From IMG/VR virus record IMGVR_UViG_3300025869_000012: a stretch of DNA of 20,000 nucleotides; one strand, 5' to 3'. Position numbers and translations under genes: made by a program. The notes below the pieces were generated by a model that saw only the letters and a list, made by a program, of their open reading frames with translations, was not told the origin of the DNA and ran no database searches. This document shows, one piece after another, positions 510 to 19,605 of this stretch (the first letter of the stretch is position 1; each line of letters begins with the position of its first letter). The DNA comes from an uncultured virus (IMG/VR IMGVR_UViG_3300025869_000012) (taxonomy: Duplodnaviria; Heunggongvirae; Uroviricota; Caudoviricetes).

Positions 510-781
510 TATGTAGATCTGTTTTCAGCAAAGCCGCCAAAAGCTTGTGGCTTATCTTCTTTCAATTTACCATCTAACATATTCTGCTCGTCTTGTATTT
601 TGTTTAATATTTCAAACGCATCAAATATAGCTAGCTTTTTAGTTGCTGCTGCATTTTTTAATCTATCAGCTGATACATCTTCTTCTGTATCTATAATTTC
701 TTCTTTGGCTACTTTAATTAATTCATCAACCGCCTTATAACCAGCTTGGATTATATTCTTCTTCTTGTCCTTGATATTCAT
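509..781 (-). CDS. Small helical protein, candidate terminase small subunit
   Basis: 90-aa charged helical ORF translationally coupled to the terminase large subunit. Function inferred from position only. Confidence 0.55.
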   Translation of the reverse strand: MNIKDKKKNIIQAGYKAVDELIKVAKEEIIDTEEDVSADRLKNAAATKKLAIFDAFEILNKIQDEQNMLDGKLKEDKPQAFGGFAENRST

Positions 782-1331
782 ATTTAATTGTAATTGAATT
801 AGTTAACACTCTATATAACCTCTCGCGCTCTATAACAAACTCAAACTTACTATTGGGACTAAACCCCACTAAAGTATTTTTTGTTATTCCTAGCGCGTCT
901 AAGGAATTATTAGAATATTTTAAAACACCAATCAAAGGTTGTTCTTTTTCCTCACTAAACTTCTCATATGATTTTATTGGTTTTACAAAACAATACTCAT
1001 CAGGCGCAGTCCATATACCTTTACTTTTATATAAAAATATTTGGTCTTTAGCAACACAGTATGTATGCTCGTCTATAAAGCTTCTACTGTTTTTCTCTAA
1101 GCCCTCTGCGTTATACCAACGTCTAAATACATTATGGTGAAGAATTACTTCATCACCAATTTGTATATTAGTATCACCAACTTTAGGTAACGCTTTTACA
1201 ACTCCTGTACGGTTTATCATTAAATGATCTTCTATTGAAGCGTTCAGCACGAGTTTAGTATCACCTACTTGTTTCGTGTTGTTGTAGCGTTTACCTTTTG
1301 GTGTTATGATAAAGTCAAATAACCCTTTCAA
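735..1331 (-). CDS. Tandem (two-domain) GroES/Cpn10-like co-chaperonin
   Basis: Two GroES-like units: FDFIITPK...RTGVVKALP...NIQIGDEVILHHN...YCVAKDQIF and DEYCFVKPI...LIGVLKY...LGITKNTLVGFSPNSKFEFVIERERLYRVLTNSITIKY. Confidence 0.65.
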   Translation of the reverse strand: MKGLFDFIITPKGKRYNNTKQVGDTKLVLNASIEDHLMINRTGVVKALPKVGDTNIQIGDEVILHHNVFRRWYNAEGLEKNSRSFIDEHTYCVAKDQIFLYKSKGIWTAPDEYCFVKPIKSYEKFSEEKEQPLIGVLKYSNNSLDALGITKNTLVGFSPNSKFEFVIERERLYRVLTNSITIKYEYQGQEEEYNPSWL

Positions 1332-2754: not shown

Positions 2755-5700
2755 CTAGGTGCCAACGCTGTTGTAGTCTACCCTGTCAGTATTGTAATCT
2801 GCTCTTGTAGTATTGTAAAAAGATATACCAGTAGTAAATGTTGTTGTTGTGTTAAATACCGTGTTAGTACTTATAACAGTATTGGTTGCTCTTGTAGTAT
2901 TGTAAGTTGTAGTAGTAGCTCTATTAGTTGATACCACAGTTGTTGTGTTAGTTGAAGTGTTGTAAGTTGTAGTTGTATTTCTGTTTGTAAGGGTTGACGT
3001 GTTAAATACAGTAACAGTTGCTGTTGTGGTGTTGAACGTGGTAGTTGTAGCTGTGGTAGTATTAAATACTGTGGCTGTGATTCTGATTGTTCCTGTAGCC
3101 GTGCTGGTAGATTTGCTTGTTTCGTATGTAGTTGTAGTGGCTCTGTTAGTTGACACAACAGTACTTGTAGCTTTCTCCGTAACAGTACTTGTATTAAATA
3201 CAGTTGTTGTGTTTCTATTTGTACTTATAGTAGTTATAAATATTGTAGTTCTTGATGTGTTAAAGGTTGTGGTTGTGTCAATATTTGTTTCGTACGTCGT
3301 GCTATATACAGTTATAGTGTTAGTACTTGTGTTAAAAGTAGTTGTGGTAGCTGTGCTAGTGTTAAACGTTGTTACTGTAGCTGTTGTAGTATTAAATACC
3401 GTTATTGTATTTGTTGATGTATTAAATACGGTATTAGTTGTTCTATTAGTTGACACTACTGTATTTGTAGCTTTACTAGTATTTGTTGATGTGTTAAATA
3501 CAGTGGTTGTACTAGTATTTGTATTATAAGCAGTTGTTGTACCTCTTGTAGTATTAAAAGTTGTTGTAGTATCTACATTAGTTGAGTATGTTGTTGTATA
3601 TGCCGTAATAGTGTTGGTTGATGTATTAAAAGTTGTGGTAGTATCGATGTTTGTAGATACTGTCGTGCTTGTTGCTCTATTTGTACTAACTACAGTACTA
3701 GTTGCTTTTTGTGTTACAGTTGATGTATTAAATACAGTAACAGTAGCTGTACTAGTATTGAAAGTAGTAGTTGTTGCTCTATTTGTTGATACAGTTGTTG
3801 TAGTATTAAAAGTTGTTGTAGTACTAGTATTAAAAGTTGTAGTAGTAGCTGTACTAGTATTAAAAGTCGTTGTTGTAATAAATGTGGTTGTAGTTGAAGT
3901 GTTAAATACAGTAACGGTAGCCGTGCTTGTATTAAACGTAGTTGTAGTATCAACGTTTGTAGACACCGTGGTACTAGTAGTAACAGTTGTAGCAGTGCTT
4001 GTGTTAAATACAGTATTTGTAGTTTTTGTAGTTTCGTATGTAGTAGTAGTTGCTCTATTTGTACTGTATGTAGTTGTAGTACCAAATGTAGTCGTTGTGC
4101 TAGTATTAAAGGTGGTGGTTGTAGCTTGGTTAGTACTATATGTAGTTGTTGTATTAAACACAGTTGTTGTACTGGTATTGAATACTGTTACTGTGCTGGT
4201 AGAAGTATTAAAAGCAGTAGTAGTGGCTCTGTTTGTAGATATAGTTGTAGTTCTTGATGTTTGCGTTGTAGTCGAAGTATTAAAAACAGTGTTAGTTGTT
4301 TTTGTTGTTTCAAACGTGGTGGTCGTAGCTCTATTTGTACTAATAGTAGTAGTTCTACTAGTTGCTGTAGATGTTGACGTATTAAATGTAGTTGTTGTAG
4401 CTCTATTAGTAGATATAGTCGTAGTCCTTGAAGTCTGTGTTGTTGTGCTTGTATTAAATACAGTATTAGTTGCTGTTGACGTATTATATGTAGTAGTAGT
4501 TGCCCTATTTGTACTTATCGTAGTGGTTCTGCTAGTAGAGGTTGCAGTCGAGGTATTAAAAGTAGTTGTGGTGGCTCTGTTAGTAGAGTATGTTGTTGTT
4601 GTAGCTCTATTGGTAGATATAGTAGTTGAGCGAGATGTAGATGTAGTAAACACAGTTGTCGTTGCTCTATTAGTAGAATATGTTGTGCTAGTTCCAAATG
4701 TAGTTGTCGTTGCTCTATTGGTAGATATAGTCGTGCTAGTTCCAAAGGTAGTTGTTGTAGACCTATTTGTTGAAACGGTTGTGCTGGTTGCAAATGTTGT
4801 GGTTGTGTTATAAGTTGTAGTTGTATTAAAAGTAGTGGTTGTGGCACGGTTAGTACTAAACGTTGTGGTTGTACTTGTATTAAATGTTGTTGTTGTTGCT
4901 CTATTAGTAGAATATGTTGTAGTAGTTCCAAATGTAGTTGTTGTAGATCTACTTGTTGATACAGTTGTACTAGTTGCAAACGTTGTAGTTGTATTAAAAG
5001 TCGTAGTTGTGTTAAACGTGGTAGTTGTGGCACGGTTGGTACTAATTGTTGTTGTTGTACTAGTGTTAAATGTAGTTGTAGTACTTCTACTTGTAGCGGT
5101 GCTTCTACTTGTAGCAGTACTTTTAGTTGTGTTAAACGTTGTGGTTGTACTAGTGTTAAACACGGTATTAGTGGCTCTACTTGTAGACATAATGGTGGTT
5201 CTACTTGTGGCAGTACTTCTACTTGTAGATTTATTAGTTACCGTACTTGTGTTAAATATTGTTGTGGTATTAAACGTAGTAGTTGTGTTTCTGTTAGTAG
5301 ATGTATTTCTACTTGTAGCTGTTGTTTTATTTGTTATTGTACTAGTATTAAATGTAGTGGTAGTTGCCCTATTAGTACTTATAGTTGTAGTTCTACTAGT
5401 TTGAGTTGTTGTAGACGTGTTAAACGTAGTAGTAGTTGAACTACTTGTAGCGGTGCTTCTAGTTGTTAGTTTGTTTGTTATTGTGCTGGTGTTAAATATT
5501 GTTGTGGTGTTAAAAGTTGTTAGAGTTGTGTAGGTTGTAGTTGTATTAGTACTAGTATTAAACGTTGTAGTTGTGCCAGTACTGTATCCACCACCATCTG
5601 TTCTTGCAGCGTGACAGTCTAATGATGCACCATTATCAAAAATACCAGACGCTGACGGAAGCGTATCACTACCAATAGGAAGTAACACAGGCTGATTAAC

Positions 5701-13213: not shown

Positions 13214-13471
13214 CTAGTCTATTAACACTACATCACCAACTTTGATGATATAGTATAATATATCTTTATGTTGTATGCTGTGTCCAGCGTGTTTATCATA
13301 ATGCACCACATCGCCCTCGCTTACGCCTTCAACGAGGTTACCTATACTAATAACCTCAGCCTTTACATACCTATTGTCACTGTCTACACTATCCATAATG
13401 TCTAGACCAGCAATTTTTTTAGGTTTTTCTTTTATGTTTTTAACTACTATATAATAACTAACGGCTTTCAT
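13214..13471 (-). CDS. groES: Co-chaperonin GroES (Cpn10)
   Basis: YIVVK...KKIAGLDI...AEVISIGNLVEGVSEGDVVHYDKHAG...YYIIKVGDVV matches the Cpn10 pattern. Overlaps the groEL 3' end. Confidence 0.9.
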   Translation of the reverse strand: MKAVSYYIVVKNIKEKPKKIAGLDIMDSVDSDNRYVKAEVISIGNLVEGVSEGDVVHYDKHAGHSIQHKDILYYIIKVGDVVLID

Positions 13472-15032
13472 TTGGATTCAGTCTAATATTACTTACAATA
13501 CAATCAGCCGACGTTATAGTAGTCGCAACACTCACCGCATTTTTTAATGCAGTCTTTGTAACTAAGACGGGGTCTACGATTCCAGCTTTGATCATTTCAA
13601 CACTATTACCCGAGATAACATCAAAACCAACGCCAGTGTTGGTAGGCGTTTCGTAGTTTTCAATACCAGCATTATTCATTATAGTGATAAAAGGTGATTT
13701 AATCGACTTCGCTAGTATTTTCTCCCCAATATTGTTACTTTTTTCAAGCTCTTGCGCAGCGTTAAGTAGCGCTATACCACCACCTGCAACAATACCTTCA
13801 CGTAAAGCTGCTTTAGTAGCGTAAATAGCATCCTCAACCCTGTCCTTCTTTTCTTTCAATTCAACCTTTGATACAGCACCAACGCGTATCATACCAACCG
13901 AACCGCTTAACATGCTCAGTCTTTGTTGTAAATGCTTCTTTAGAAACGGATCTTTCTCTTTTTCAATGAGCTTTTCCACTTCTTTTATTCTTTCCTGTAT
14001 TACCTTAGTGTCTTTATTAACAGTTAACACAGTTTTTTCACCGTCTGTTACGCTTTTTAGCGCAGAACCAAGCACATCTGGCTGTATTAGGTCTAAATCA
14101 TCGCCTAATTCTTCATTTATTACCTTTGCACCGGTTAAAATTGACAAATCTTCAAGCGTTCCTTGCCTTGTAGACATAAAACCAGGTAAATCTATGATGT
14201 TTACGTCTATATTGCCCTTAATCTTGTTCATTAAAAGCGCAGATTTTGCTTTTTCGTCAATTTGTGCCATAATTAGCAGTGATTGCCTGCTTTGAATCAC
14301 ATGCTCTAGCACGTTTTGTATCTTTCTAAGGCTAGGTATGTTACAATTTACAATTAAAATAGCAGGGTTATCAAGTTCTGCTACACCTTTGTCCTTATTT
14401 GTAGTAAAATGTGGTGATGTTAGGCCAGCTTCAAACTGTACGCCATCAACTATTTCAGCAAAAGTCTTTTCAGATTCAGACTCTTCCATCATTACTACAC
14501 CATTTTTACCTACTTCTTTGTAAGCTTGTGATATAATTTTTCCAATTTGCCTATCGTTGTTGCAACTAATACTGCTAACGTGCTCCAAAAGATCACCTTC
14601 AACCTCAACACTTTCTCTTTCAAGATATTTATTAACTTTATCCAAGCCTGTATAAATACCGTCTTTAATTTCACGTATAGTTTTGTTAGATAATTCTTCA
14701 TTTATGTTTTTTAGTAAAGCTTCGGTTAAAACTATTGATGTGGTTGTACCATCACCTGCTTCCGCTACTGTTTTGGCCGATGCTTGTTTTACGAGTCTTG
14801 CTCCTATATTCTCCACGGGATCAAGCAGGACAACTGATTCTGCTACAGTTACACCGTCCTTTGTGATCACTGGAGAGCCTAAAGCGTCTTCGTATATTAC
14901 ACACATACCTGAGGCACCCAGGGTGGACTTCACTGCTGCAGCTAGTTTATCCACACCTGCTAATACCTTTTCTCTGGCTTTATCGCCAAAATTAAGATCT
15001 TTAACGATCTCACTAGGGTTATTATATTCCAT
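13458..15032 (-). CDS. groEL: Chaperonin GroEL (Cpn60), phage-encoded
   Basis: AVKSTLG, ITKDGVTVA, AGDGTTTS, ELKEKKDRVEDAIYATKAALREGIVAGGG and GIVDPVLVTKTALKNAVSVA. No GGM tail. Confidence 0.97.
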   Translation of the reverse strand: MEYNNPSEIVKDLNFGDKAREKVLAGVDKLAAAVKSTLGASGMCVIYEDALGSPVITKDGVTVAESVVLLDPVENIGARLVKQASAKTVAEAGDGTTTSIVLTEALLKNINEELSNKTIREIKDGIYTGLDKVNKYLERESVEVEGDLLEHVSSISCNNDRQIGKIISQAYKEVGKNGVVMMEESESEKTFAEIVDGVQFEAGLTSPHFTTNKDKGVAELDNPAILIVNCNIPSLRKIQNVLEHVIQSRQSLLIMAQIDEKAKSALLMNKIKGNIDVNIIDLPGFMSTRQGTLEDLSILTGAKVINEELGDDLDLIQPDVLGSALKSVTDGEKTVLTVNKDTKVIQERIKEVEKLIEKEKDPFLKKHLQQRLSMLSGSVGMIRVGAVSKVELKEKKDRVEDAIYATKAALREGIVAGGGIALLNAAQELEKSNNIGEKILAKSIKSPFITIMNNAGIENYETPTNTGVGFDVISGNSVEMIKAGIVDPVLVTKTALKNAVSVATTITSADCIVSNIRLNPNESR

Positions 15033-16112: not shown

Positions 16113-16523
16113 TTATTTTAATTTATACTTTGAAAATTGTTGTTTTTTTATCGCATAGTTACTGCCTCCAATACCTACTGGTCTTACGTTTTCGTTACCC
16201 CCTGGTTGAAACTTCTCTCTGTTAACTATTTGTTTGTTAAATGCATTTTTAATGCCTAATGTACTTACTATAGTATCACCTTTTTGAACATTAGCATTGT
16301 ACATATCTGCTGCATCAAAATCAGGATATTGCTTTATAAGATCTTTATTTGCTTTTTTATACGATCTAAAATCCATTTGTACTGCTGCGCCTTCTTTTAA
16401 ATTGTCGATGCCTTCTGATATTCTATTACCTATATTTTTAGTTATGCCTTTTAAGCCTAATCCTCGCTTATTTTGCTGAGGTAAATTTACATAGTTAAGT
16501 GGTGCGTTTCTCATATTAATCAT
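16113..16523 (-). CDS. Hypothetical protein, first gene of the minus-strand operon
   Basis: 136-aa ORF. The start could instead be the ATG at 16514. Confidence 0.65.
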   Translation of the reverse strand: MINMRNAPLNYVNLPQQNKRGLGLKGITKNIGNRISEGIDNLKEGAAVQMDFRSYKKANKDLIKQYPDFDAADMYNANVQKGDTIVSTLGIKNAFNKQIVNREKFQPGGNENVRPVGIGGSNYAIKKQQFSKYKLK

Positions 16524-16550
16524 AATTACAGGTTTCTATTAGTATTTAAG

Positions 16551-16695
16551 TAGTGTGACAATAGGCCCTTATTATTAGACTATATAGGGCTAATGTCACT
16601 ATAAAAAAATTGTGAGATAATTAGAAGTAGAGTGTTGTACTATGACATTATGTCATACATATAAAAATAAAAATGACAATATGACAATGGGCCCC
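16551..16695. repeat. TGACA-containing inverted and direct repeat cluster at the strand switch
   Basis: Imperfect inverted repeat gtgacaataggccct...agggctaatgtcac (16555-16599), palindrome tatgacat-t-atgtcata (16641-16657) and direct repeat atgacaat x2 (16673-16688). Confidence 0.75.
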
Positions 16696-16730
16696 ACCAA
16701 TATTCTAGAAATACAACATTATTATTTTCA

Positions 16731-16761
16731 ACAATCTATATACGATGCCATATAGATAATA
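16731..16761 (+). promoter_or_regulatory. Repeated promoter-like motif, copy 1
   Basis: ACAATCTATATACGA-TGCCATA-TAGATAATA, upstream of the ORF at 16792. Confidence 0.7.
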
Positions 16762-16791
16762 CTACTATACAAACAAAAACAAATATATCTT

Positions 16792-16923
16792 ATGACTAAA
16801 TTAAAATTCACTTCACTTGACTACAATAAATTCATACAAACTATTGATTCACTAGATTCCAATAATAATGATTACACAATTGAAACTGATTATTTAGATT
16901 CTTATTATATAATAATAAAATAA
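16792..16923 (+). CDS. Small hypothetical protein (43 aa)
   Basis: Manual translation MTKLKFTSLDYNKFIQTIDSLDSNNNDYTIETDYLDSYYIIIK*, following motif copy 1 and an A-rich leader. Confidence 0.55.
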   Translation: MTKLKFTSLDYNKFIQTIDSLDSNNNDYTIETDYLDSYYIIIK

Positions 16924-16992
16924 ATAGAAAAAGAGAGATAGTGCGGTATACTTTACTAACTAAAAATATACAATAAACAATTACACTACTTT

Positions 16993-17023
16993 ACAATGTA
17001 AATACTATAACTATAAGATAACA
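16993..17023 (+). promoter_or_regulatory. Repeated promoter-like motif, copy 2 (degenerate)
   Basis: ACAATGTAAATACTA-TAACTAT-AAGATAACA, upstream of the ORF at 17059. Confidence 0.6.
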
Positions 17024-17058
17024 TTACTATACAACTTAAACATAAAACAAATACAACT

Positions 17059-17286
17059 ATGAATACAATCACTTCTAAAAGATTTGTAGTAAGAAAAAGT
17101 CTTCTTAATACAAACACAAACATAACTTTCACTAATAAAAAAGGAAAAGAAATTACTTACTCACACGATAAAGTATTTAATATAATGAAAGATACTCTCA
17201 CTAACTTACCATGTTGGTTAAAGTATAAGAGTTACACTGCTACTAATAATATTCCATTAGTACTTAGAGATAAAGAGTTAGTTTAA
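17059..17286 (+). CDS. Hypothetical early protein
   Basis: 75-aa ORF after an A-rich leader (aaaacaaatacaactATG). Confidence 0.75.
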   Translation: MNTITSKRFVVRKSLLNTNTNITFTNKKGKEITYSHDKVFNIMKDTLTNLPCWLKYKSYTATNNIPLVLRDKELV

Positions 17287-17301
17287 TAGCTCTTTACCTC
17301 A

Positions 17302-17348
17302 TCTAGTCTTGGAGCAGAGGTGGGTTTCGACTACTCACACTAGAACTA
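17302..17348 (+). ncRNA. Minimal tRNA-like element (acceptor-like stem plus T-arm, no anticodon arm)
   Basis: tctagt (17302-17307) pairs with actaga (17339-17344). gtgggt-TTCGACT-actcac forms a T-arm with a canonical 7-nt T-loop. Confidence 0.5.
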
Positions 17349-17362
17349 AATTACAACTTACT

Positions 17363-17461
17363 ATGAAGAATAATAAACTAATTACAGAGACACTAATGTC
17401 TATAACTTTCTTAACACTTTTAACATTACTACTATGGATAACACTAATAATAATAGGATAA
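17363..17461 (+). CDS. Small single-TM membrane peptide (32 aa)
   Basis: Manual translation MKNNKLITETLMSITFLTLLTLLLWITLIIIG*. Confidence 0.5.
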   Translation: MKNNKLITETLMSITFLTLLTLLLWITLIIIG

Positions 17462-17544
17462 CTATACTAACCTCAGAAGAAATACAAATGGTTTTAGATA
17501 ACTGGTATGACAGGTTAGATTCAAGTGATGAGTTTACAATGTAA
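17434..17544 (+). CDS. Small acidic hypothetical peptide (36 aa)
   Basis: Manual translation MDNTNNNRITILTSEEIQMVLDNWYDRLDSSDEFTM*, overlapping the previous ORF. Confidence 0.4.
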   Translation: MDNTNNNRITILTSEEIQMVLDNWYDRLDSSDEFTM

Positions 17545-17566
17545 ACACGATCATTAATAGATAATA
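17536..17566 (+). promoter_or_regulatory. Repeated promoter-like motif, copy 3
   Basis: ACAATGTAAACACGA-TCATTAA-TAGATAATA, upstream of the ATG at 17580. Confidence 0.7.
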
Positions 17567-17579
17567 TATATAAACAACT

Positions 17580-17732
17580 ATGAATACAATTAAATTTCTA
17601 CCAAACAATAAAATACTACTTAATAATAAAACATTATTAAACAAAATAAATAACACTAACCAGTATGCCTCTTGGTATACTATTAAAAACAAAAACTATG
17701 GCGATACAATACAACGCTTACCAATCAATTAA
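17580..17732 (+). CDS. Small hypothetical protein (50 aa)
   Basis: Manual translation MNTIKFLPNNKILLNNKTLLNKINNTNQYASWYTIKNKNYGDTIQRLPIN*. The start context acaactATGAATACAAT is the same as for the ORF at 17059. Confidence 0.5.
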   Translation: MNTIKFLPNNKILLNNKTLLNKINNTNQYASWYTIKNKNYGDTIQRLPIN

Positions 17733-17868
17733 ATGTGGTAAAAACACAACAGAAAAAGATTTATACGAACTATTTGGCGACGCTATAACCGTCCATGATG
17801 GTAAAGGTAATGAAATAAAAGACTATTTTAAACATAAATACAACAAAAGAAATGGCTGGAATAACTAA
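17698..17868 (+). CDS. Small hypothetical protein
   Basis: ORF-track frame 17665..17868. The ATG at 17698 (aaaacaaaaactATG, MAIQYNAY) has the better context. Confidence 0.6.
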   Translation: MAIQYNAYQSIKCGKNTTEKDLYELFGDAITVHDGKGNEIKDYFKHKYNKRNGWNN

Positions 17869-18283
17869 ATACCAACAAGAAAAGCAAGCATTAGAAGATG
17901 CTTTCGCAAGAAAAATGTTACTTGACTATGATATACGTGAAGTAACTACGCAAAGACAAGCTAAAAATGGCACTAGAGAGTTTAAATTCCCTGTTAGTTG
18001 CTTCAGTAAGCAAATGATTAAGTGGCATAGTGAGCATTCACTACCAAAAACTAGACTTAGAATGGCTATATTTAAAAATGGTTATGTAAGAAAACAAAAT
18101 GGTGCGTACTGTCCTTACCCAATTAACAAAAGGTATAGACAAAATGTGCAACATACTTTACTAACTATTAACGGAGAGTTGAAAACTAGAAGATATAATA
18201 CTCTTGCCTATGAAATAATACATGAAAGTATTGCTATGATGAACTATATGTTAAACTATTATTTAAAGAACTATGCTAAGTAA
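17852..18283 (+). CDS. Hypothetical protein
   Basis: 143-aa ORF overlapping both neighbours. Confidence 0.75.
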   Translation: MAGITKYQQEKQALEDAFARKMLLDYDIREVTTQRQAKNGTREFKFPVSCFSKQMIKWHSEHSLPKTRLRMAIFKNGYVRKQNGAYCPYPINKRYRQNVQHTLLTINGELKTRRYNTLAYEIIHESIAMMNYMLNYYLKNYAK

Positions 18284-18476
18284 ACTAAGTATTGAAGAAT
18301 TTGAGAAATTAGCAGATCAAACTGCTGAAGAATCTATAAAAGATATATATAGAGCGTGCGATTGGGCACTAGATGGATACGAAATCAAGAAAGATTTCAA
18401 TGAAATTCATGGCACACTGATGAAAGCTGTCACTAAAAGAATAGCGATTCAAATGGGTGTAACAAAAGAAAAATAA
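18273..18476 (+). CDS. Hypothetical helical protein
   Basis: 67-aa ORF in operon context. Confidence 0.7.
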   Translation: MLSKLSIEEFEKLADQTAEESIKDIYRACDWALDGYEIKKDFNEIHGTLMKAVTKRIAIQMGVTKEK

Positions 18477-18478
18477 AT

Positions 18479-18509
18479 ACAATATAAATACGATTTACTA
18501 TGGATAATA
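18479..18509 (+). promoter_or_regulatory. Repeated promoter-like motif, copy 4
   Basis: ACAATATAAATACGA-TTTACTA-TGGATAATA. The ATG at 18515 follows GATAAT after 6 nt. Confidence 0.75.
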
Positions 18510-18514
18510 ATAAT

Positions 18515-18730
18515 ATGAAATGTAAATGTAAAAGAAATATACCTCAAGCGCGTGTTGACTTAGGTTATAAGACGTGTGTAACTTGTTCAACAGTTGAACC
18601 TTATGGTTGTGTAAGTATAACCTACCACAAAACCGGCAATACCATTCAGATTATGCCGAAGGAACAAGCGAAACGCATTCGTAAGTTAACAGAACGCCGA
18701 GGTTATGGCACAATGTTGAAAAACATATAA
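18515..18730 (+). CDS. DksA/TraR-like C4 zinc-finger protein
   Basis: MKCKCKRNIPQARVDLGYKTCVTCS resembles the zf-dskA_traR pattern C..C...IP..R.......C..C. The start is more likely 18515 than 18500. Confidence 0.65.
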   Translation: MKCKCKRNIPQARVDLGYKTCVTCSTVEPYGCVSITYHKTGNTIQIMPKEQAKRIRKLTERRGYGTMLKNI

Positions 18731-19010
18731 ATACTCGCATTGTTGCACCTTCGGGTAACTAAAGCGGATGTAAGACGAGTATGACTAACATGGAGGTATT
18801 TGGTACAATGTATACAAAGACCATACAATTAGTCAAGATCAGGTATGGACTTGCGACGTAATTAAGTTTACGCATCAAGTAATACAGGAAACACAGTAGA
18901 TCTTGTGTTGAAAACAATGGAGGTTCGATTCCTCCACTGATCTCTTAAACAGTAGGTACCAAGCCTGGACAAGAAGGGTGCAGCGTTACCGAGTCGCAAT
19001 GCCTACTGTT
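18731..19010 (+). ncRNA. Structured non-coding region with four consecutive stem-enclosed domains, one tRNA-like
   Basis: Closing stems atactcg/cgagtat, gactaa/ttagtc, agatcag/ctgatct and aacagtagg/cctactgtt. Includes a cUUCGg tetraloop and a T-arm tggagg-TTCGATT-cctcca. GC content is higher than the flanks. Confidence 0.6.
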
Positions 19011-19018
19011 ACCTTATT

Positions 19019-19049
19019 ACAAATTAAATACGAATAACTATAGATAATA
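19019..19049 (+). promoter_or_regulatory. Repeated promoter-like motif, copy 5
   Basis: ACAAATTAAATACGA-ATAACTA-TAGATAATA. The ATG at 19055 follows GATAAT after 6 nt. Confidence 0.75.
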
Positions 19050-19054
19050 ATAAT

Positions 19055-19276
19055 ATGTTATACAATAAATTAAAACCAGAAATTAAACGAAGATTACATA
19101 GAAATAGTAATCAGTATGCGATTAGTATACAACATATAATGAAGTCTCTTAAAACTAAGAGGTATTATAACGAGCTCACAATTGGTGAGATAAAACAAAT
19201 CAGAGCATTTGGTGATGTAAGCAACACTGATATACTCTGGGGTGATACAATGTTTAACGATTTAAATAAATTATAA
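19055..19276 (+). CDS. Hypothetical protein
   Basis: 73-aa ORF directly after motif copy 5, with TAATG coupling to the next gene. Confidence 0.75.
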   Translation: MLYNKLKPEIKRRLHRNSNQYAISIQHIMKSLKTKRYYNELTIGEIKQIRAFGDVSNTDILWGDTMFNDLNKL

Positions 19277-19605
19277 TGGAAAATAATGAAAAACTAAAAA
19301 AGTATCTTGACCACTACGATGCTCAAATATATACGAGTTATACTGATGAAGGCAATTGTAGCTTCCACGTTTACAGAGAAGATACCGCCGACGGTTATGA
19401 GGTGTTTATAGCTAAATATAAAAGCGACACATCAATCGATATACAAAATGACTTACACTACTACGCTCACACTTTAGATGACGTTATTGTAGCAGCTGTA
19501 AATGATGGTGAAACAGTATATGTAGATGATGACTTGTGGAATGATCATTACTTAGAAGATCATTTTGCAGATCTATACGATAGAGAATTTGGAGATGATG
19601 ATTAG
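19276..19605 (+). CDS. Highly acidic hypothetical protein
   Basis: 109-aa Asp/Glu/Tyr-rich ORF. Confidence 0.75.
   Translation: MENNEKLKKYLDHYDAQIYTSYTDEGNCSFHVYREDTADGYEVFIAKYKSDTSIDIQNDLHYYAHTLDDVIVAAVNDGETVYVDDDLWNDHYLEDHFADLYDREFGDDD

What the first reader, a model, noticed from the sequence alone, without database searches (positions are those of the whole stretch)
18731..19010. Multi-domain structured non-coding RNA containing an enlarged tRNA-like module
Seen: four back-to-back domains. (1) atactcg 18731-18737 / cgagtat 18776-18782 with an inner acc-TTCG-ggt tetraloop. (2) gactaa 18783-18788 / ttagtc 18829-18834. (3) agatcag 18836-18842 / ctgatct 18937-18943, enclosing a long arm (acttg..cgtaa/ttacg..caagt), an aacaca/tgtgtt hairpin and a T-arm tggagg-TTCGATT-cctcca stacked on the closing stem. 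(4) aacagtagg 18948-18956 / cctactgtt 19002-19010. Domain 3 is ~108 nt with no normal D or anticodon arm and no encoded CCA. Inference: a tRNA-mimic or processed small-RNA array, for example a decoy for host anticodon nucleases, a Y-RNA-like species or RNase P/Z processing signals.
Basis: partly seen in the sequence, partly recalled or inferred. Interest (0 to 1): 0.7.

Follow-up and report, generated by a model that had tools for sequence, protein, structure and literature searches.

The report
Phage tRNA-shaped RNA with kissing loop
A marine phage carries a conserved gene array for small folded RNAs whose core is a tRNA-shaped molecule that cannot decode and whose "anticodon" loop is built to pair with a second copy of itself, a variant not found in the RNA family library or the papers searched.

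Summary
The four back-to-back stem-loops are in the sequence as described. Only domain 3 (18836-18944) stands out by folding energy (z -3.98), and it has strong comparative support. A covariance model finds 64 relatives (55 distinct) in marine viral and metagenome contigs; 97.7% of pair cells are paired, against 32-44% in slid controls.

Domain 3 is a non-decoding cloverleaf:
- a 6-bp acceptor stem;
- a 4-bp D-like stem carrying GG and a swappable inserted hairpin;
- an anticodon-position hairpin with an 8-nt loop;
- a canonical T arm;
- C74 encoded, but no CCA.

That loop is self-complementary in every lineage: 7 loop types, all with a palindromic central tetramer. This argues for RNA-RNA kissing.

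ARAGORN and Rfam call no tRNA or tmRNA here. Sister phages place the same hairpin just before tag-less mini-tmRNAs with a G3:U70 pair and A73 (Rfam tmRNA, 31-66 bits).

Domain 1 is a separate conserved motif with covarying closing stems. Domain 4 is conserved, with one compensatory change. Domain 2 has one partial relative.

A second, 44-nt tRNA top-half mimic lies at 17302-17345.

Most likely this is an early-operon RNA array cut out by host tRNA-processing enzymes to give a stable, dimerising tRNA mimic aimed at the translation or tRNA machinery. Processing, dimerisation and target are all inferred.

The parts
18731..18782 (+). Domain 1, here called motif M1. It is a hairpin with closing stem AUACUCG/CGAGUAU, a conserved core (CAUUGWUGCAC ... 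GUAAC-AAAGCRGAUGUAAG) and an apical ACC-UUCG-GGU.
   Evidence: Sequence and fold (z only -0.93). The same core occurs in 8 distinct contexts with different closing stems: ACUCG/CGAGU, GCUCG/CGAGC, UUGUGG/CCACAA, GAUAAAG/CUUUAU and CUAGAAAG/CUUUCAAGG. The apical inserts also differ. In L077 it is nested inside a mini-tmRNA-like element. In L386 and L397 it lies 3' of the tRNA-like gene.
18783..18834 (+). Domain 2: an accessory hairpin with closing stem GACUAA/UUAGUC.
   Evidence: Sequence and fold (z -1.89, 8 of 200 shuffles as good). It has no relative among the first 142 loci. One metagenome relative, L330, keeps the closing stem and both flanks but has a different interior. This is the weakest of the four domains.
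18836..18944 (+). Domain 3, here called family F2: a tRNA-shaped, non-decoding RNA. G1 is at 18837, N73 is U18943 (it can pair with A18836) and C74 is at 18944.
   Evidence: Fold z -3.98. CM R1 finds 64 matches, 55 of them distinct; 97.7% of cells are paired and 11 of 23 pairs changed on both sides. ARAGORN and Rfam make no call.
18837..18842 (+). Acceptor stem, 5' strand GAUCAG. It pairs with 18937-18942 (CUGAUC).
   Evidence: Seven acceptor stem types occur in the family, all complementary: AGCUAG 14, AACUAG 12, GAUCAG 10, GGUCAG 7, GGUUAG 3, GAUUAG 2 and GGCCAG 1. Cells of helix 1 are 100% paired.
18843..18885 (+). D-like arm: stem GUAU (18843-46) with AUAC (18882-85), then GG (18847-48), then an inserted hairpin (18849-18880).
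   Evidence: Two of the 4 stem pairs changed on both sides. In minimal 75-nt members the arm is GUA-UGG-UAC or GUGA-UGG-UCAC with no insert. Relatives have unrelated hairpins in place of the insert.
18890..18909 (+). Motif M2, a hairpin in the anticodon-arm position. The stem is AACACA/UGUGUU. The 8-nt loop GUAGAUCU (18896-18903) ends in the palindrome AGAUCU (18898-18903). It is flanked by conserved AGGA and GAAAACAA (18910-18917).
   Evidence: 114 true M2 contexts carry 7 loop types. Five of the 7 hold a 6-nt palindrome and 7 of 7 a palindromic central tetramer. Of 9 chance matches to the same pattern, 0 are palindromic. The stems covary.
18918..18936 (+). T arm: 6-bp stem UGGAGG/CCUCCA with loop UUCGAUU.
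   Evidence: Sequence. Cells are 99.7% paired, and one pair alternates G-C and A-U.
18948..19010 (+). Domain 4: an accessory hairpin with closing stem AACAGUAGG/CCUACUGUU. Inside is a 9-nt loop UUACCGAGU closed by GCG/CGC.
   Evidence: It is identical in L011 and several metagenome loci. L007 and L086 carry a roughly 55-nt insertion. L397 has a compensatory G-C to A-U change in the closing stem. The UUACCGAGU loop recurs in the arm of a mini-tmRNA-like element, L021. Fold z is only -1.44.
17302..17345 (+). A second tRNA mimic, here called family F4. It is a 44-nt 'top half': acceptor UCUAGU/ACUAGA, linker C-UUGGAGCAGAGG, T arm UGGGU-UUCGACU-ACUCA, A73, then CUAA.
   Evidence: Sequence. Fourteen distinct contexts in relatives have covarying acceptors (UCUCUU/AAGAGA, UCUCGU/ACGAGA, ACUAGU/ACUAGU, AUCGU/ACGAU) and an invariant linker. 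Fold energy alone is not remarkable (z +0.19).

Best explanation
Region 18731-19010 is a non-coding RNA array inside a terminator-free operon of small, probably early, genes of a roughly 63-70 kb marine phage.

Its constant core is domain 3, a 107-nt cloverleaf that keeps what tRNA-maturation enzymes read: a 12-bp acceptor/T-arm stack, a T loop UUCGAUU, a D-loop-like GG, and N73-C74. In place of an anticodon arm it has a hairpin whose 8-nt loop ends in a self-complementary hexamer.

I propose the following steps, all inferred:
1. Host RNase P cuts before G18837.
2. 3' trimming and the CCA-adding enzyme finish the end after U18943/C18944. This releases a stable tRNA-like RNA and also frees the flanking hairpins (domains 1, 2 and 4) as separate small RNAs.
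3. Two copies pair loop to loop through AGAUCU.
4. The product acts as a non-decoding mimic or decoy for a host factor that binds the tRNA top half. This would put it in the same functional niche as the tag-less mini-tmRNAs that sister phages carry beside the same hairpin.

Shown here: the structure, the family, the strand, the modular make-up and the self-complementary loop.
For: Structure and family:
- CM hits in 64 places, 55 distinct; 97.7% of cells paired against 31.6-43.7% when the partner is slid.
- 0 of 500 shuffles reach the observed percentage paired, the cells changed on both sides, or the covariation score (the smaller set agrees).

RNA on the + strand:
- All 46 CM hits in gene-oriented loci and the window lie on the gene strand.
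- G-U pairs are kept, for example G-U in 50 of 51 cells at one M2 pair.

Not coding:
- No + strand ORF of 30 aa or more lies in 18731-19054.
- The arms are swapped for unrelated hairpins of other lengths.

Links to tRNA processing:
- The trailer N73-C-(U/A)-A is shared with the ARAGORN-called tRNAs of relatives.
- C74 is present in 55 of 55 members.
- There are 0 terminator-like sites in 16400-19400.
- The elements cluster with real tRNAs within about 3.5 kb in complete relatives.

Self-pairing loop:
- Seven loop types (AGAUCU, UGAUCA, AGGCCU, AAGCUU, AACGUU, U-GUAC-U, U-GCGC-U) all have a palindromic central tetramer.
- 0 of 9 chance matches to the pattern do.
- By my reading of the sequence, the palindrome's axis lies 1 nt off the hairpin's axis, so it is not part of one larger DNA dyad.

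Link to mini-tmRNAs:
- M2 is nested before the T arm in 64 contexts. In 29 it stands alone 16 nt or less before a GGG/GGA-NGUG 5' end.
- Those elements score 31-66 bits on Rfam tmRNA.
- 49 distinct elements keep G3:U70 and A73 while pair 4:69 varies: C-G 23, A-U 14, G-C 11, G-U 1.

Precedent:
- The TLD-only tmRNA of phage DS6A is described as inhibiting tmRNA, perhaps by titrating SmpB (passages of PMC4131195, and PMC11915505).
Against: - No transcript ends, CCA addition or abundance could be shown. The RNA-library data were assembled contigs, which may hold DNA.
- The window's element lacks G3:U70, and Rfam gives it no tmRNA or tRNA hit even at E up to 10. Five minimal family members get none at E up to 5. 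Any link to SmpB, alanylation or trans-translation therefore rests on neighbourhood, not homology.
- L075 carries both an F2-type element and a mini-tmRNA, so the two are not simple substitutes.
- The covariation counts were made on alignments fitted to the model. One measure, further pair types, was not above the shuffles (497 of 500 reached it).
- Domains 1, 2 and 4 do not stand out by folding energy.
- No RNA-handling enzyme or partner protein was recognised among 71 ORFs of the closest complete relative.
- The host is unknown.
Confidence: 0.5

Rival explanations
1. Pure cis-acting punctuation. The tRNA-like folds (18836-18944 and 17302-17345) serve only as RNase P/RNase Z cutting marks that divide the long early transcript into separate mRNAs, as t-elements do in plant mitochondria. 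The excised RNAs would have no role of their own.
For: - The elements sit between ORFs on the gene strand in an operon with 0 terminator-like sites.
- The 44-nt mini element at 17302-17345 holds little beyond the acceptor and T arm.
- The 3' trailers are shared with real tRNAs.
- t-elements are shown or proposed to direct RNase P/Z cuts and to receive non-encoded C/A (passages of PMC1920247).
Against: - A cutting mark does not need the invariant AGGA/GAAAACAA linkers.
- Nor does it need an anticodon-position hairpin whose loop stays self-complementary through 7 sequence types.
- Nor does it need recurrent cargo motifs that move between scaffolds.
- The hairpin M2 is also kept as a stand-alone element in sister phages.
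Confidence: 0.2
2. A specific inhibitor of host ribosome rescue. Domain 3 would be a diverged tmRNA tRNA-like domain that binds SmpB (or EF-Tu or the ribosome) and blocks trans-translation, as proposed for the TLD-only RNA of phage DS6A.
For: - Sister phages carry undoubted TLD-only tmRNA-like RNAs next to the same M2 hairpin.
- The D-like UAUGG of F2 resembles the AUAUGG of those elements.
Against: - There is no Rfam tmRNA hit for the window's element or for 5 minimal members.
- It has no G3:U70 pair.
- It has a true D stem and an anticodon-position hairpin, which tmRNA TLDs lack.
- It co-occurs with a mini-tmRNA in L075.
Confidence: 0.15
3. A self-assembling structural RNA. Through kissing loops, the array or its products would build a multimer with a role in the virion, in packaging, or as a cage, like phi29 pRNA or the phage-borne GOLLD/ROOL RNAs found near tRNA islands.
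For: - The loop is kept self-complementary in all lineages.
- The locus is rich in modules and lies among tRNA genes in relatives.
- GOLLD and ROOL are phage RNAs, often near tRNA islands, that form homo-oligomers through kissing loops (passages of PMC12286853).
Against: - One palindromic loop gives a dimer, not a ring or cage.
- No second intermolecular contact was found.
- There is no Rfam hit to GOLLD or ROOL.
- The elements are small.
- phi29 pRNA is recalled from memory and was not tested.
Confidence: 0.08
4. A decaying tRNA pseudogene or a DNA-level element (attP fragment, origin or operator).
For: - Relatives carry real tRNA-Met, tRNA-Gln and other tRNAs in the same neighbourhood, while the window has none.
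- The minus strand folds equally well.
- Phage attP sites often contain tRNA 3' halves (general knowledge).
Against: - 55 distinct members keep all four helices with compensatory changes.
- Both acceptor strands are present.
- G-U pairs and the strand bias point to RNA.
- No integrase was found among 71 ORFs of the closest complete relative.
- The family is spread through marine metagenomes.
Confidence: 0.03

Closest known systems
TLD-only (tag-less) tmRNA of mycobacteriophage DS6A, and CDS-less organellar tmRNAs
   Same: It is a phage-encoded, anticodon-less RNA that keeps the acceptor/T-arm top half. Sister phages of this window carry clear members, and the same M2 hairpin accompanies both kinds (passages of PMC4131195 and PMC11915505).
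   Different: The window's element has no G3:U70 pair and U73 instead of A73. It has a real D-like stem and an anticodon-position hairpin. It gets no Rfam tmRNA score.
Canonical tRNA (Rfam RF00005; ARAGORN)
   Same: Cloverleaf topology, a 12-bp acceptor/T stack, the T loop UUCGAUU, GG in the D region, and the same 3' trailer as the tRNAs of related phages.
   Different: The anticodon-position arm has a 6-7 bp stem and an 8-nt loop with no fixed triplet. The D loop carries an inserted hairpin. The linkers are longer. Neither ARAGORN nor Rfam calls it.
t-elements of plant mitochondria (Forner et al. 2007, PMC1920247)
   Same: Non-canonical tRNA-like folds between genes that can direct RNase P/Z cuts and receive CCA-type additions (passages).
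   Different: The setting is an organelle, not a phage. t-elements have no conserved self-complementary loop or cargo modules. Processing is not shown here.
Dimerisation-initiation hairpins of retroviral genomes (HIV-1 DIS). Recalled from memory; no tool result.
   Same: A hairpin loop with a 6-nt palindrome whose sequence varies between lineages but stays self-complementary.
   Different: Here the loop has 8 nt (GU plus the hexamer) and sits in the anticodon position of a tRNA-shaped phage RNA. Dimerisation has not been tested.
GOLLD and ROOL RNAs (PMC12286853)
   Same: Phage-borne structured RNAs of unknown function, often beside tRNA genes, that self-associate through kissing loops (passages).
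   Different: They are 5-8 times larger, have unrelated folds, and give no Rfam hit here.
Phage T4 RNAC and RNAD (species 1 and 2 RNAs)
   Same: Small stable RNAs from a phage tRNA region whose roles are unknown (passage of PMC3014915).
   Different: That they are tRNA-like in processing is recalled, not tested.
Bacterial Y RNA-like YrlA (PMC4201824; seen only in a search listing)
   Same: A non-coding RNA with a tRNA-like module.
   Different: No Rfam hit. No Ro/TROVE protein among 71 ORFs of the closest complete relative.

Membership tests
tRNA | Called by tRNA detectors (ARAGORN; Rfam RF00005 at 29 bits or more) | tested here: not met
   ARAGORN finds 0 genes in the window. Rfam has no gathering-level match. 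At E up to 10 the only hit in the tRNA clan is tRNA-Sec, at 13.9 bits against a threshold of 47. Five minimal family members have no tRNA hit at E up to 5.
tRNA | Acceptor stem stacked on a 5-bp T stem with a 7-nt T loop (UUCRANY), and GG in the D loop | tested here: met
   6 + 6 bp stack, loop UUCGAUU, GG at 18847-48. Covariation.
tRNA | Anticodon arm with a 5-bp stem and a 7-nt loop bearing an anticodon | tested here: not met
   The stem has 6-7 bp and the loop 8 nt (GUAGAUCU). The loop sequence differs between lineages and keeps only its self-complementarity.
tmRNA, including TLD-only forms (Rfam RF00023) | Score on the tmRNA covariance model | tested here: not met
   No tmRNA hit on window 18600-19100 at E up to 10. 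F2 loci L004, L007, L008, L009 and L011 have none at the gathering score. Sister elements do score: L074 and L075 at 66 bits; 8 of 8 F1 elements at 31-40 bits, below the cut-off of 47.
tmRNA, including TLD-only forms (Rfam RF00023) | Alanine identity: G1-C72, G2-C71, G3:U70, A73 | tested here: not met
   The window has G1-C72, A2-U71, U3-A70 and U73. It is met in 49 distinct sister elements.
tmRNA, including TLD-only forms (Rfam RF00023) | Binding to SmpB and entry into stalled ribosomes | not testable with these tools
   Needs biochemistry.
Y RNA / YrlA | Rfam match, and a Ro60 (TROVE) partner gene | tested here: not met
   No Rfam match. 0 of 71 ORFs of relative G002 hit TROVE in Pfam.
GOLLD / ROOL | Rfam match | tested here: not met
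   No match in the window or in 18 related loci.
t-element-like processing signal | Transcript ends coincide with the ends of the tRNA-like fold; non-encoded C/A at the 3' end | tested here: inconclusive
   Only contigs of RNA libraries could be laid on the region. They show presence, not ends.
Kissing-loop dimerisation hairpin | Loop self-complementarity kept through compensatory change | tested here: met
   7 of 7 loop types have a palindromic central tetramer and 5 of 7 a palindromic hexamer. 0 of 9 chance matches do.
Kissing-loop dimerisation hairpin | Physical dimer formation | not testable with these tools
   RNAcofold cannot model kissing. Its extended-duplex gain did not separate the native loop from shuffled loops.

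The most novel reading that the evidence does not exclude
This lineage of marine phages may run a modular 'tRNA-scaffold' RNA kit. A tRNA-shaped chassis, matured by the host's own tRNA enzymes, would carry exchangeable cargo hairpins and, in the anticodon position, a self-complementary loop that joins two molecules. The resulting dimeric, non-decoding tRNA mimic would work together with, or in place of, tag-less mini-tmRNAs to take over or blunt host ribosome rescue or another tRNA-reading system early in infection. A natural tRNA-shaped RNA that dimerises through its 'anticodon' loop would be a new kind of phage RNA effector.
Probability: 0.3. Interest if true: 0.85.

Novelty: new variant of a known kind. 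Interest (0 to 1): 0.72.

Why it matters
Phage tRNA mimics without an anticodon are known from a few cases, such as the TLD-only tmRNA of DS6A. Their range and purpose are still unclear.

This locus adds several points.
- A widespread marine phage lineage keeps several kinds of tRNA mimic side by side.
- One kind has lost the alanine marks but gained a loop made for self-pairing.
- The same small RNA motifs are shuffled between stand-alone hairpins and tRNA-like scaffolds. This is the 'tRNA scaffold' trick used in the laboratory to stabilise recombinant RNAs (that laboratory method is recalled from memory, not from a call).

If the RNAs are matured by RNase P and the CCA enzyme and act on the translation machinery, they would give a simple, testable system for two questions: how phages use RNA alone to manipulate host tRNA-reading factors, and how short natural RNAs form defined dimers.

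Tried and rejected
- **Cultured phage records.** Megablast and blastn of the window and of 18480-19080 gave no match. tblastn of the upstream 76-aa ORF gave no match. blastn of two mini-tmRNA-like elements gave only T-arm-length matches to tRNAs and phage tmRNAs.
- **Own assembly.** It is not held. The nearest record, G001, lacks the region.
- **RNA evidence.** Four metatranscriptome runs were laid. Contigs cover parts of 18737-19013, including the UGAUCA loop variant. They are assemblies and show neither ends, strand nor level. Depth differences were not used.
- **RNAcofold of M2.** The dimer is at -18.6 against 2 x -5.6 kcal/mol, but shuffled loops gave a similar gain (mean -5.8 against -7.4). 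Not informative.
- **First M2 pattern.** It was too loose: 117+ matches, mostly chance, and only one new true copy.
- **Bacterial genome scan.** Three matches, all with unpaired stems, so chance. No host clue.
- **Promoter scan.** 18 sites against 17.6 expected. No information.
- **Protein partners.** Pfam on 71 ORFs and PHROGs on 53 ORFs of relative G002 found no CCA enzyme, RNA ligase, synthetase, SmpB, Ro or integrase. The only hint was a sub-threshold TrmB-like hit, 21.6 bits against a cut-off of 24. Pfam on 11 small ORFs near the array found nothing above cut-off.
- **Ideas checked by eye and dropped for lack of covariation** (on):
  - pairing of CAUUGUU in domain 1 with AACAAUG after M2;
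  - kissing between M2 and the UUGAUCA loop of the insert found in some domain-1 copies;
  - pairing of the domain-4 loop CGAGU with the domain-1 stem;
  - any link between the GAUC in the window's acceptor stem and the loop.
- **Other readings considered and dropped.** An 11-nt GNRA-receptor reading of UAUGG, an HDV-like ribozyme reading of domain 4, and a tag ORF in M2 were each rejected on the sequence.
- **Earlier notes of this scan.** Nothing near this place or by sequence.
- **Papers.** Searches found no paper describing this family: tRNA-like phage RNAs and phage tmRNA forms; T4 RNAC/RNAD; GOLLD/ROOL.
Full report
**1. What is in the sequence**

Window 18731-19010 lies between a 76-aa ORF with CxC...CxxC (18500-18730, + strand) and the next ORF (19055-19276, + strand). 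No + strand ORF of 30 aa or more lies inside it. The reverse strand folds as well (z -2.92).

Folded one by one, only domain 3 is exceptional:

| Domain | z-score | Shuffles as good |
|---|---|---|
| 1 | -0.93 | 34 of 200 |
| 2 | -1.89 | 8 of 200 |
| 3 | -3.98 | 0 of 200 |
| 4 | -1.44 | 22 of 200 |

Perfect inverted repeats of 7 bp or more with a 20-110 nt gap are frequent in this AT-rich DNA: 144 in 20 kb, and 33 of 394 300-nt bins hold 4 or more. The stems by themselves prove little. ARAGORN finds no tRNA or tmRNA in the window. Rfam 15 has no match at gathering scores. With relaxed thresholds the only tRNA-clan match is tRNA-Sec at 13.9 bits against a cut-off of 47 (E 7.9), driven by the T arm.

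**2. The genome**

The window is from a phage.
- It holds GroEL and GroES homologues.
- The closest complete relatives are 63-72 kb, 32-34% G+C, and 98-100% complete by CheckV.
- The closest, G002, has terminase, portal and virion proteins, a crAss-type muzzle domain, ribonucleotide reductase, thymidylate synthase, primase-helicase, ERF, DNA ligase and a sigma-like protein.
- Marine and seawater metagenomes and viromes of several studies hold the stretch.
- No cultured phage record matched.
- Structural genes run on the minus strand up to 16523. A run of small + strand ORFs starts at about 16640, and it has 0 terminator-like sites up to 19400.

The array therefore sits in a terminator-free operon of small genes. 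That these are early genes is my inference.

**3. Relatives of domain 3**

The upstream ORF brought in 77 related loci. In the nearest ones the DNA after the ORF holds the same tRNA-like module, with three kinds of change:
- compensatory changes in the acceptor stem (GAUCAG/CUGAUC, GGUCAG/CUGACC, GGCCAG/CUGGCC);
- compensatory changes in the T stem (UGGAGG/CCUCCA, UGAAGG/CCUUCA) and in the inner hairpin;
- unrelated hairpins in place of the 'long arm'.

I built a covariance model from 8 close sequences.
- It found 48 places at E up to 1 in 80 sources. All 46 in the window and the gene-oriented loci are on the gene strand; the other 2 are in loci that were not oriented.
- On 16 matches at E up to 0.001, 96.9% of pair cells are paired and 16 of 23 pairs changed on both sides. 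Slid controls give 35-45%.
- After adding metagenome loci there are 64 matches at E up to 1e-5, 55 of them distinct. 97.7% of cells are paired, 11 of 23 pairs and 153 cells changed on both sides, and slid controls give 31.6-43.7%.
- 0 of 500 shuffles reach the observed pairing, changed cells or covariation score. 2 of 500 reach the number of pairs changed on both sides.
- The count of further pair types is not above the shuffles: 497 of 500 reach it.

These alignments are fitted to the model, which favours it. The slid controls and the many double changes still make a strong case. G-U pairs that would be C-A on the other strand are kept (G-U in 50 of 51 cells at one pair). With the strand bias, this points to an RNA read from the + strand.

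**4. Anatomy of domain 3 (family F2)**

In window coordinates:

| Part | Coordinates | Sequence and notes |
|---|---|---|
| Acceptor stem | 18837-42 with 18937-42 | GAUCAG/CUGAUC; A18836 can also pair with U18943 |
| D-like stem | 18843-46 with 18882-85 | GUAU/AUAC |
| GG | 18847-48 | |
| Inserted hairpin | 18849-80 | swappable |
| Linker | 18886-89 | AGGA |
| Hairpin M2, stem | 18890-95 with 18904-09 | AACACA/UGUGUU |
| Hairpin M2, loop | 18896-18903 | GUAGAUCU, 8 nt |
| Linker | 18910-17 | GAAAACAA |
| T arm | 18918-36 | loop UUCGAUU |
| N73, then C74 | 18943, 18944 | U, then C |

Minimal members of 75 nt have no insert. Their D arm is GUA-UGG-UAC or GUGA-UGG-UCAC. The molecule is therefore a cloverleaf, not an armless fold.

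Across 55 distinct members:
- seven complementary acceptor types occur;
- N73 is A in 43, U in 10 and G in 2;
- position 74 is C in 55 of 55;
- the next bases are UA, AA or UU, so CCA is not encoded.

The ARAGORN-called tRNAs of related phages have the same kind of trailer, for example tRNA-Met ...CUGCGCA-C-CUAA. This suggests one shared 3' maturation route. Even the minimal members get no Rfam tRNA or tmRNA hit at E up to 5.

**5. The self-complementary loop**

This gave 123 distinct contexts.
- 114 are true copies with paired, covarying stems.
- They carry 7 loop types: GUAGAUCU 22, GUUGAUCA 4, GUAGGCCU 9, GUAAGCUU 11, GUAACGUU 8, GUUGCGCU 59, GUUGUACU 1.
- Five of the 7 end in a 6-nt palindrome, and all 7 have a palindromic central tetramer (GAUC twice, GGCC, AGCU, ACGU, GCGC, GUAC).
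- The 9 chance matches, including all 3 bacterial hits, have unpaired stems, and 0 of 9 are palindromic.

A random tetramer is palindromic once in 16. Each switch between types needs paired changes. By my reading of the sequence, the palindrome's axis lies one base off the hairpin's axis, and a 6-nt palindrome cannot fold on itself. Because the only thing conserved is self-complementarity, the simplest reading is loop-loop pairing between two copies of the RNA. This is inferred; RNAcofold could not test it. Metatranscriptome contigs carry the paired variant A18898U with U18903A, that is UGAUCA.

**6. Sister elements and modularity**

A family-blind scan looked for a 5-bp T stem, a UUCRANN loop and an acceptor complement. 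In the 80 sources it found 103 elements: 28 are ARAGORN tRNAs and 75 are not. Several families exist.

The largest, F1, has GGGCGUG, GGGAGUG or GGGGGUG acceptors.
- Over all loci, 49 distinct elements have G1-C72, G2-C71, G3:U70 and A73 in 49 of 49. Pair 4:69 varies: C-G 23, A-U 14, G-C 11, G-U 1.
- ARAGORN calls only 5 of them: 3 tRNA-Ala, 1 undetermined, 1 tmRNA.
- Rfam's tmRNA model matches L074 and L075 end to end at 66 bits (cut-off 47), with the whole message part deleted.
- It matches 8 of 8 tested F1 elements at 31-40 bits, below the cut-off, with E 1e-9 to 1e-13.

These are tag-less, TLD-only tmRNA-like RNAs. This kind is reported for mycobacteriophage DS6A and said to inhibit tmRNA, perhaps by titrating SmpB (passages of PMC4131195, and PMC11915505).

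Hairpin M2 links the families. It is nested before the T arm in 64 contexts. It stands alone, 16 nt or less before an F1-type 5' end, in 29. Other arrangements account for 20, and 2 contexts were too short to judge.

Other motifs also move between settings.
- The core of domain 1 occurs in 8 contexts with covarying closing stems. Once it is nested in an F1 element, and twice it lies 3' of F2.
- An ACC-NCGGC-tetraloop-GCAAA-GGU arm occurs in both F1 and F2 scaffolds.
- The UUACCGAGU loop of domain 4 recurs in an F1 arm.

Metagenome locus L330 has the window's four-domain order, with another insert in domain 1, another interior in domain 2, another arm in domain 3, and an identical domain 4. L397 has a compensatory change in the domain 4 stem.

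**7. A second mimic in the window**

At 17302-17345, just after the ORF that ends at 17286, lies a 44-nt acceptor-plus-T-arm fold with an invariant linker UUGGAGCAGAGG, A73 and a CUAA trailer. It is conserved in 14 contexts with covarying acceptors.

Complete relatives hold 2-4 tRNAs or mimics within about 3.5 kb. The two closest relatives have no canonical tRNA at all.

**8. How it most likely works**

Shown: a conserved, strand-specific, modular RNA locus whose core is a non-decoding cloverleaf with a self-complementary loop.

Inferred:
- Maturation by RNase P, 3' trimming and the CCA enzyme. This rests on the preserved top half, C74, the trailers shared with tRNAs, and the lack of terminators.
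- Dimerisation through the loop.
- A decoy or scaffold role towards a factor that reads the tRNA top half, by analogy with the neighbouring mini-tmRNAs.

The main rival is pure transcript punctuation, as with plant mitochondrial t-elements (passages of PMC1920247). It explains the 44-nt element well. It does not explain the conserved loop, the linkers or the cargo motifs.

A specific SmpB sponge is possible, but the window's element fails both tmRNA tests (no model score, no G3:U70). A pRNA- or GOLLD/ROOL-like assembly (passages of PMC12286853) would need more than one contact between molecules. Decay and DNA-level readings are contradicted by the covariation, the G-U pairs and the strand bias.

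**9. Novelty**

The kind is known: anticodon-less phage tRNA mimics and TLD-only tmRNA. The F2 form is not in Rfam 15, and my paper searches found no description of it. It differs in lacking the alanine marks, in having a D arm, and in carrying a kissing-type loop in the anticodon position. The shuffling of the same motifs between hairpins and scaffolds is likewise not described in those sources.

Earlier notes of this scan report related anticodon-less mimics in other phages. They are leads, not evidence.

Supplements of the papers were not read. Mao et al. 2009 is known to me only through the passage in PMC4131195.

Noticed in passing
window 17302-17345 (+): A 44-nt tRNA 'top-half' mimic (6-bp acceptor, linker UUGGAGCAGAGG, T arm, A73, CUAA trailer) lies directly after the ORF ending at 17286. 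It is conserved with covarying acceptors in 14 contexts.
   Followed up: yes
window 18487-18509 and 19027-19049 (+): A repeated motif AAUACGA-N6-ACUAUNGAUAAUA ends about 5 nt before the start codons of ORFs 18500 and 19055. It gives 2 matches against 0 expected. Similar motifs precede homologous genes in relatives. It may be a phage-specific promoter or translation signal.
   Followed up: partly
window 18725-18734 (+): AUAUAAAUAC overlaps the stop codon of ORF 18500-18730, right before domain 1. Relatives have UAUAUAAGC at the same place. It may be the array's own start signal. Not tested.
   Followed up: no
L074 3497-3577; L075 3660-3740; F1 elements such as L010 3518-3594 and L028 1975-2050: Tag-less (TLD-only) mini-tmRNA-like genes of 47-161 nt with G3:U70 and A73 occur in sister phages. 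Rfam tmRNA scores are 66 bits for L074 and L075 and 31-40 bits for the F1 elements.
   Followed up: yes
L004 about 3420-3530; L007 about 3385-3440; L010 about 3596-3700: A roughly 50-nt module (UUGGGGAGGCGAUG...GAGCCC...GUGAACAAU) is inserted into different host hairpins in three phages. In L007 and L086 the host is domain 4. This nested insertion is reminiscent of a small mobile RNA/DNA module.
   Followed up: no
L008 about 3270-3305; L004 about 3268-3312; L330; L035: A hairpin module with loop UUGAUC(A) occurs either alone or inserted in place of the UUCG loop of domain 1. Its GAUC core could pair with AGAUCU-type M2 loops, but it does not covary with them (by eye).
   Followed up: partly
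window 13458-15032 (-) and 735-1331 (-): The phage encodes GroEL (PHROG E 1.9e-133) and a GroES-like co-chaperonin. The best cultured-phage GroEL matches are only about 41% identical.
   Followed up: partly
L143 13477-14088 (relative G002): A 203-aa ORF has a sub-threshold Pfam hit to Methyltransf_4, the TrmB tRNA m7G family (21.6 bits against a cut-off of 24). This could be a tRNA-modifying enzyme in a phage rich in tRNA mimics.
   Followed up: no
window 17272-17295 (+): A hairpin AAAGAG...CUCUUU spans the stop codon of ORF 17059-17286, just before the mini tRNA mimic. Relatives have other hairpins at the same place.
   Followed up: no
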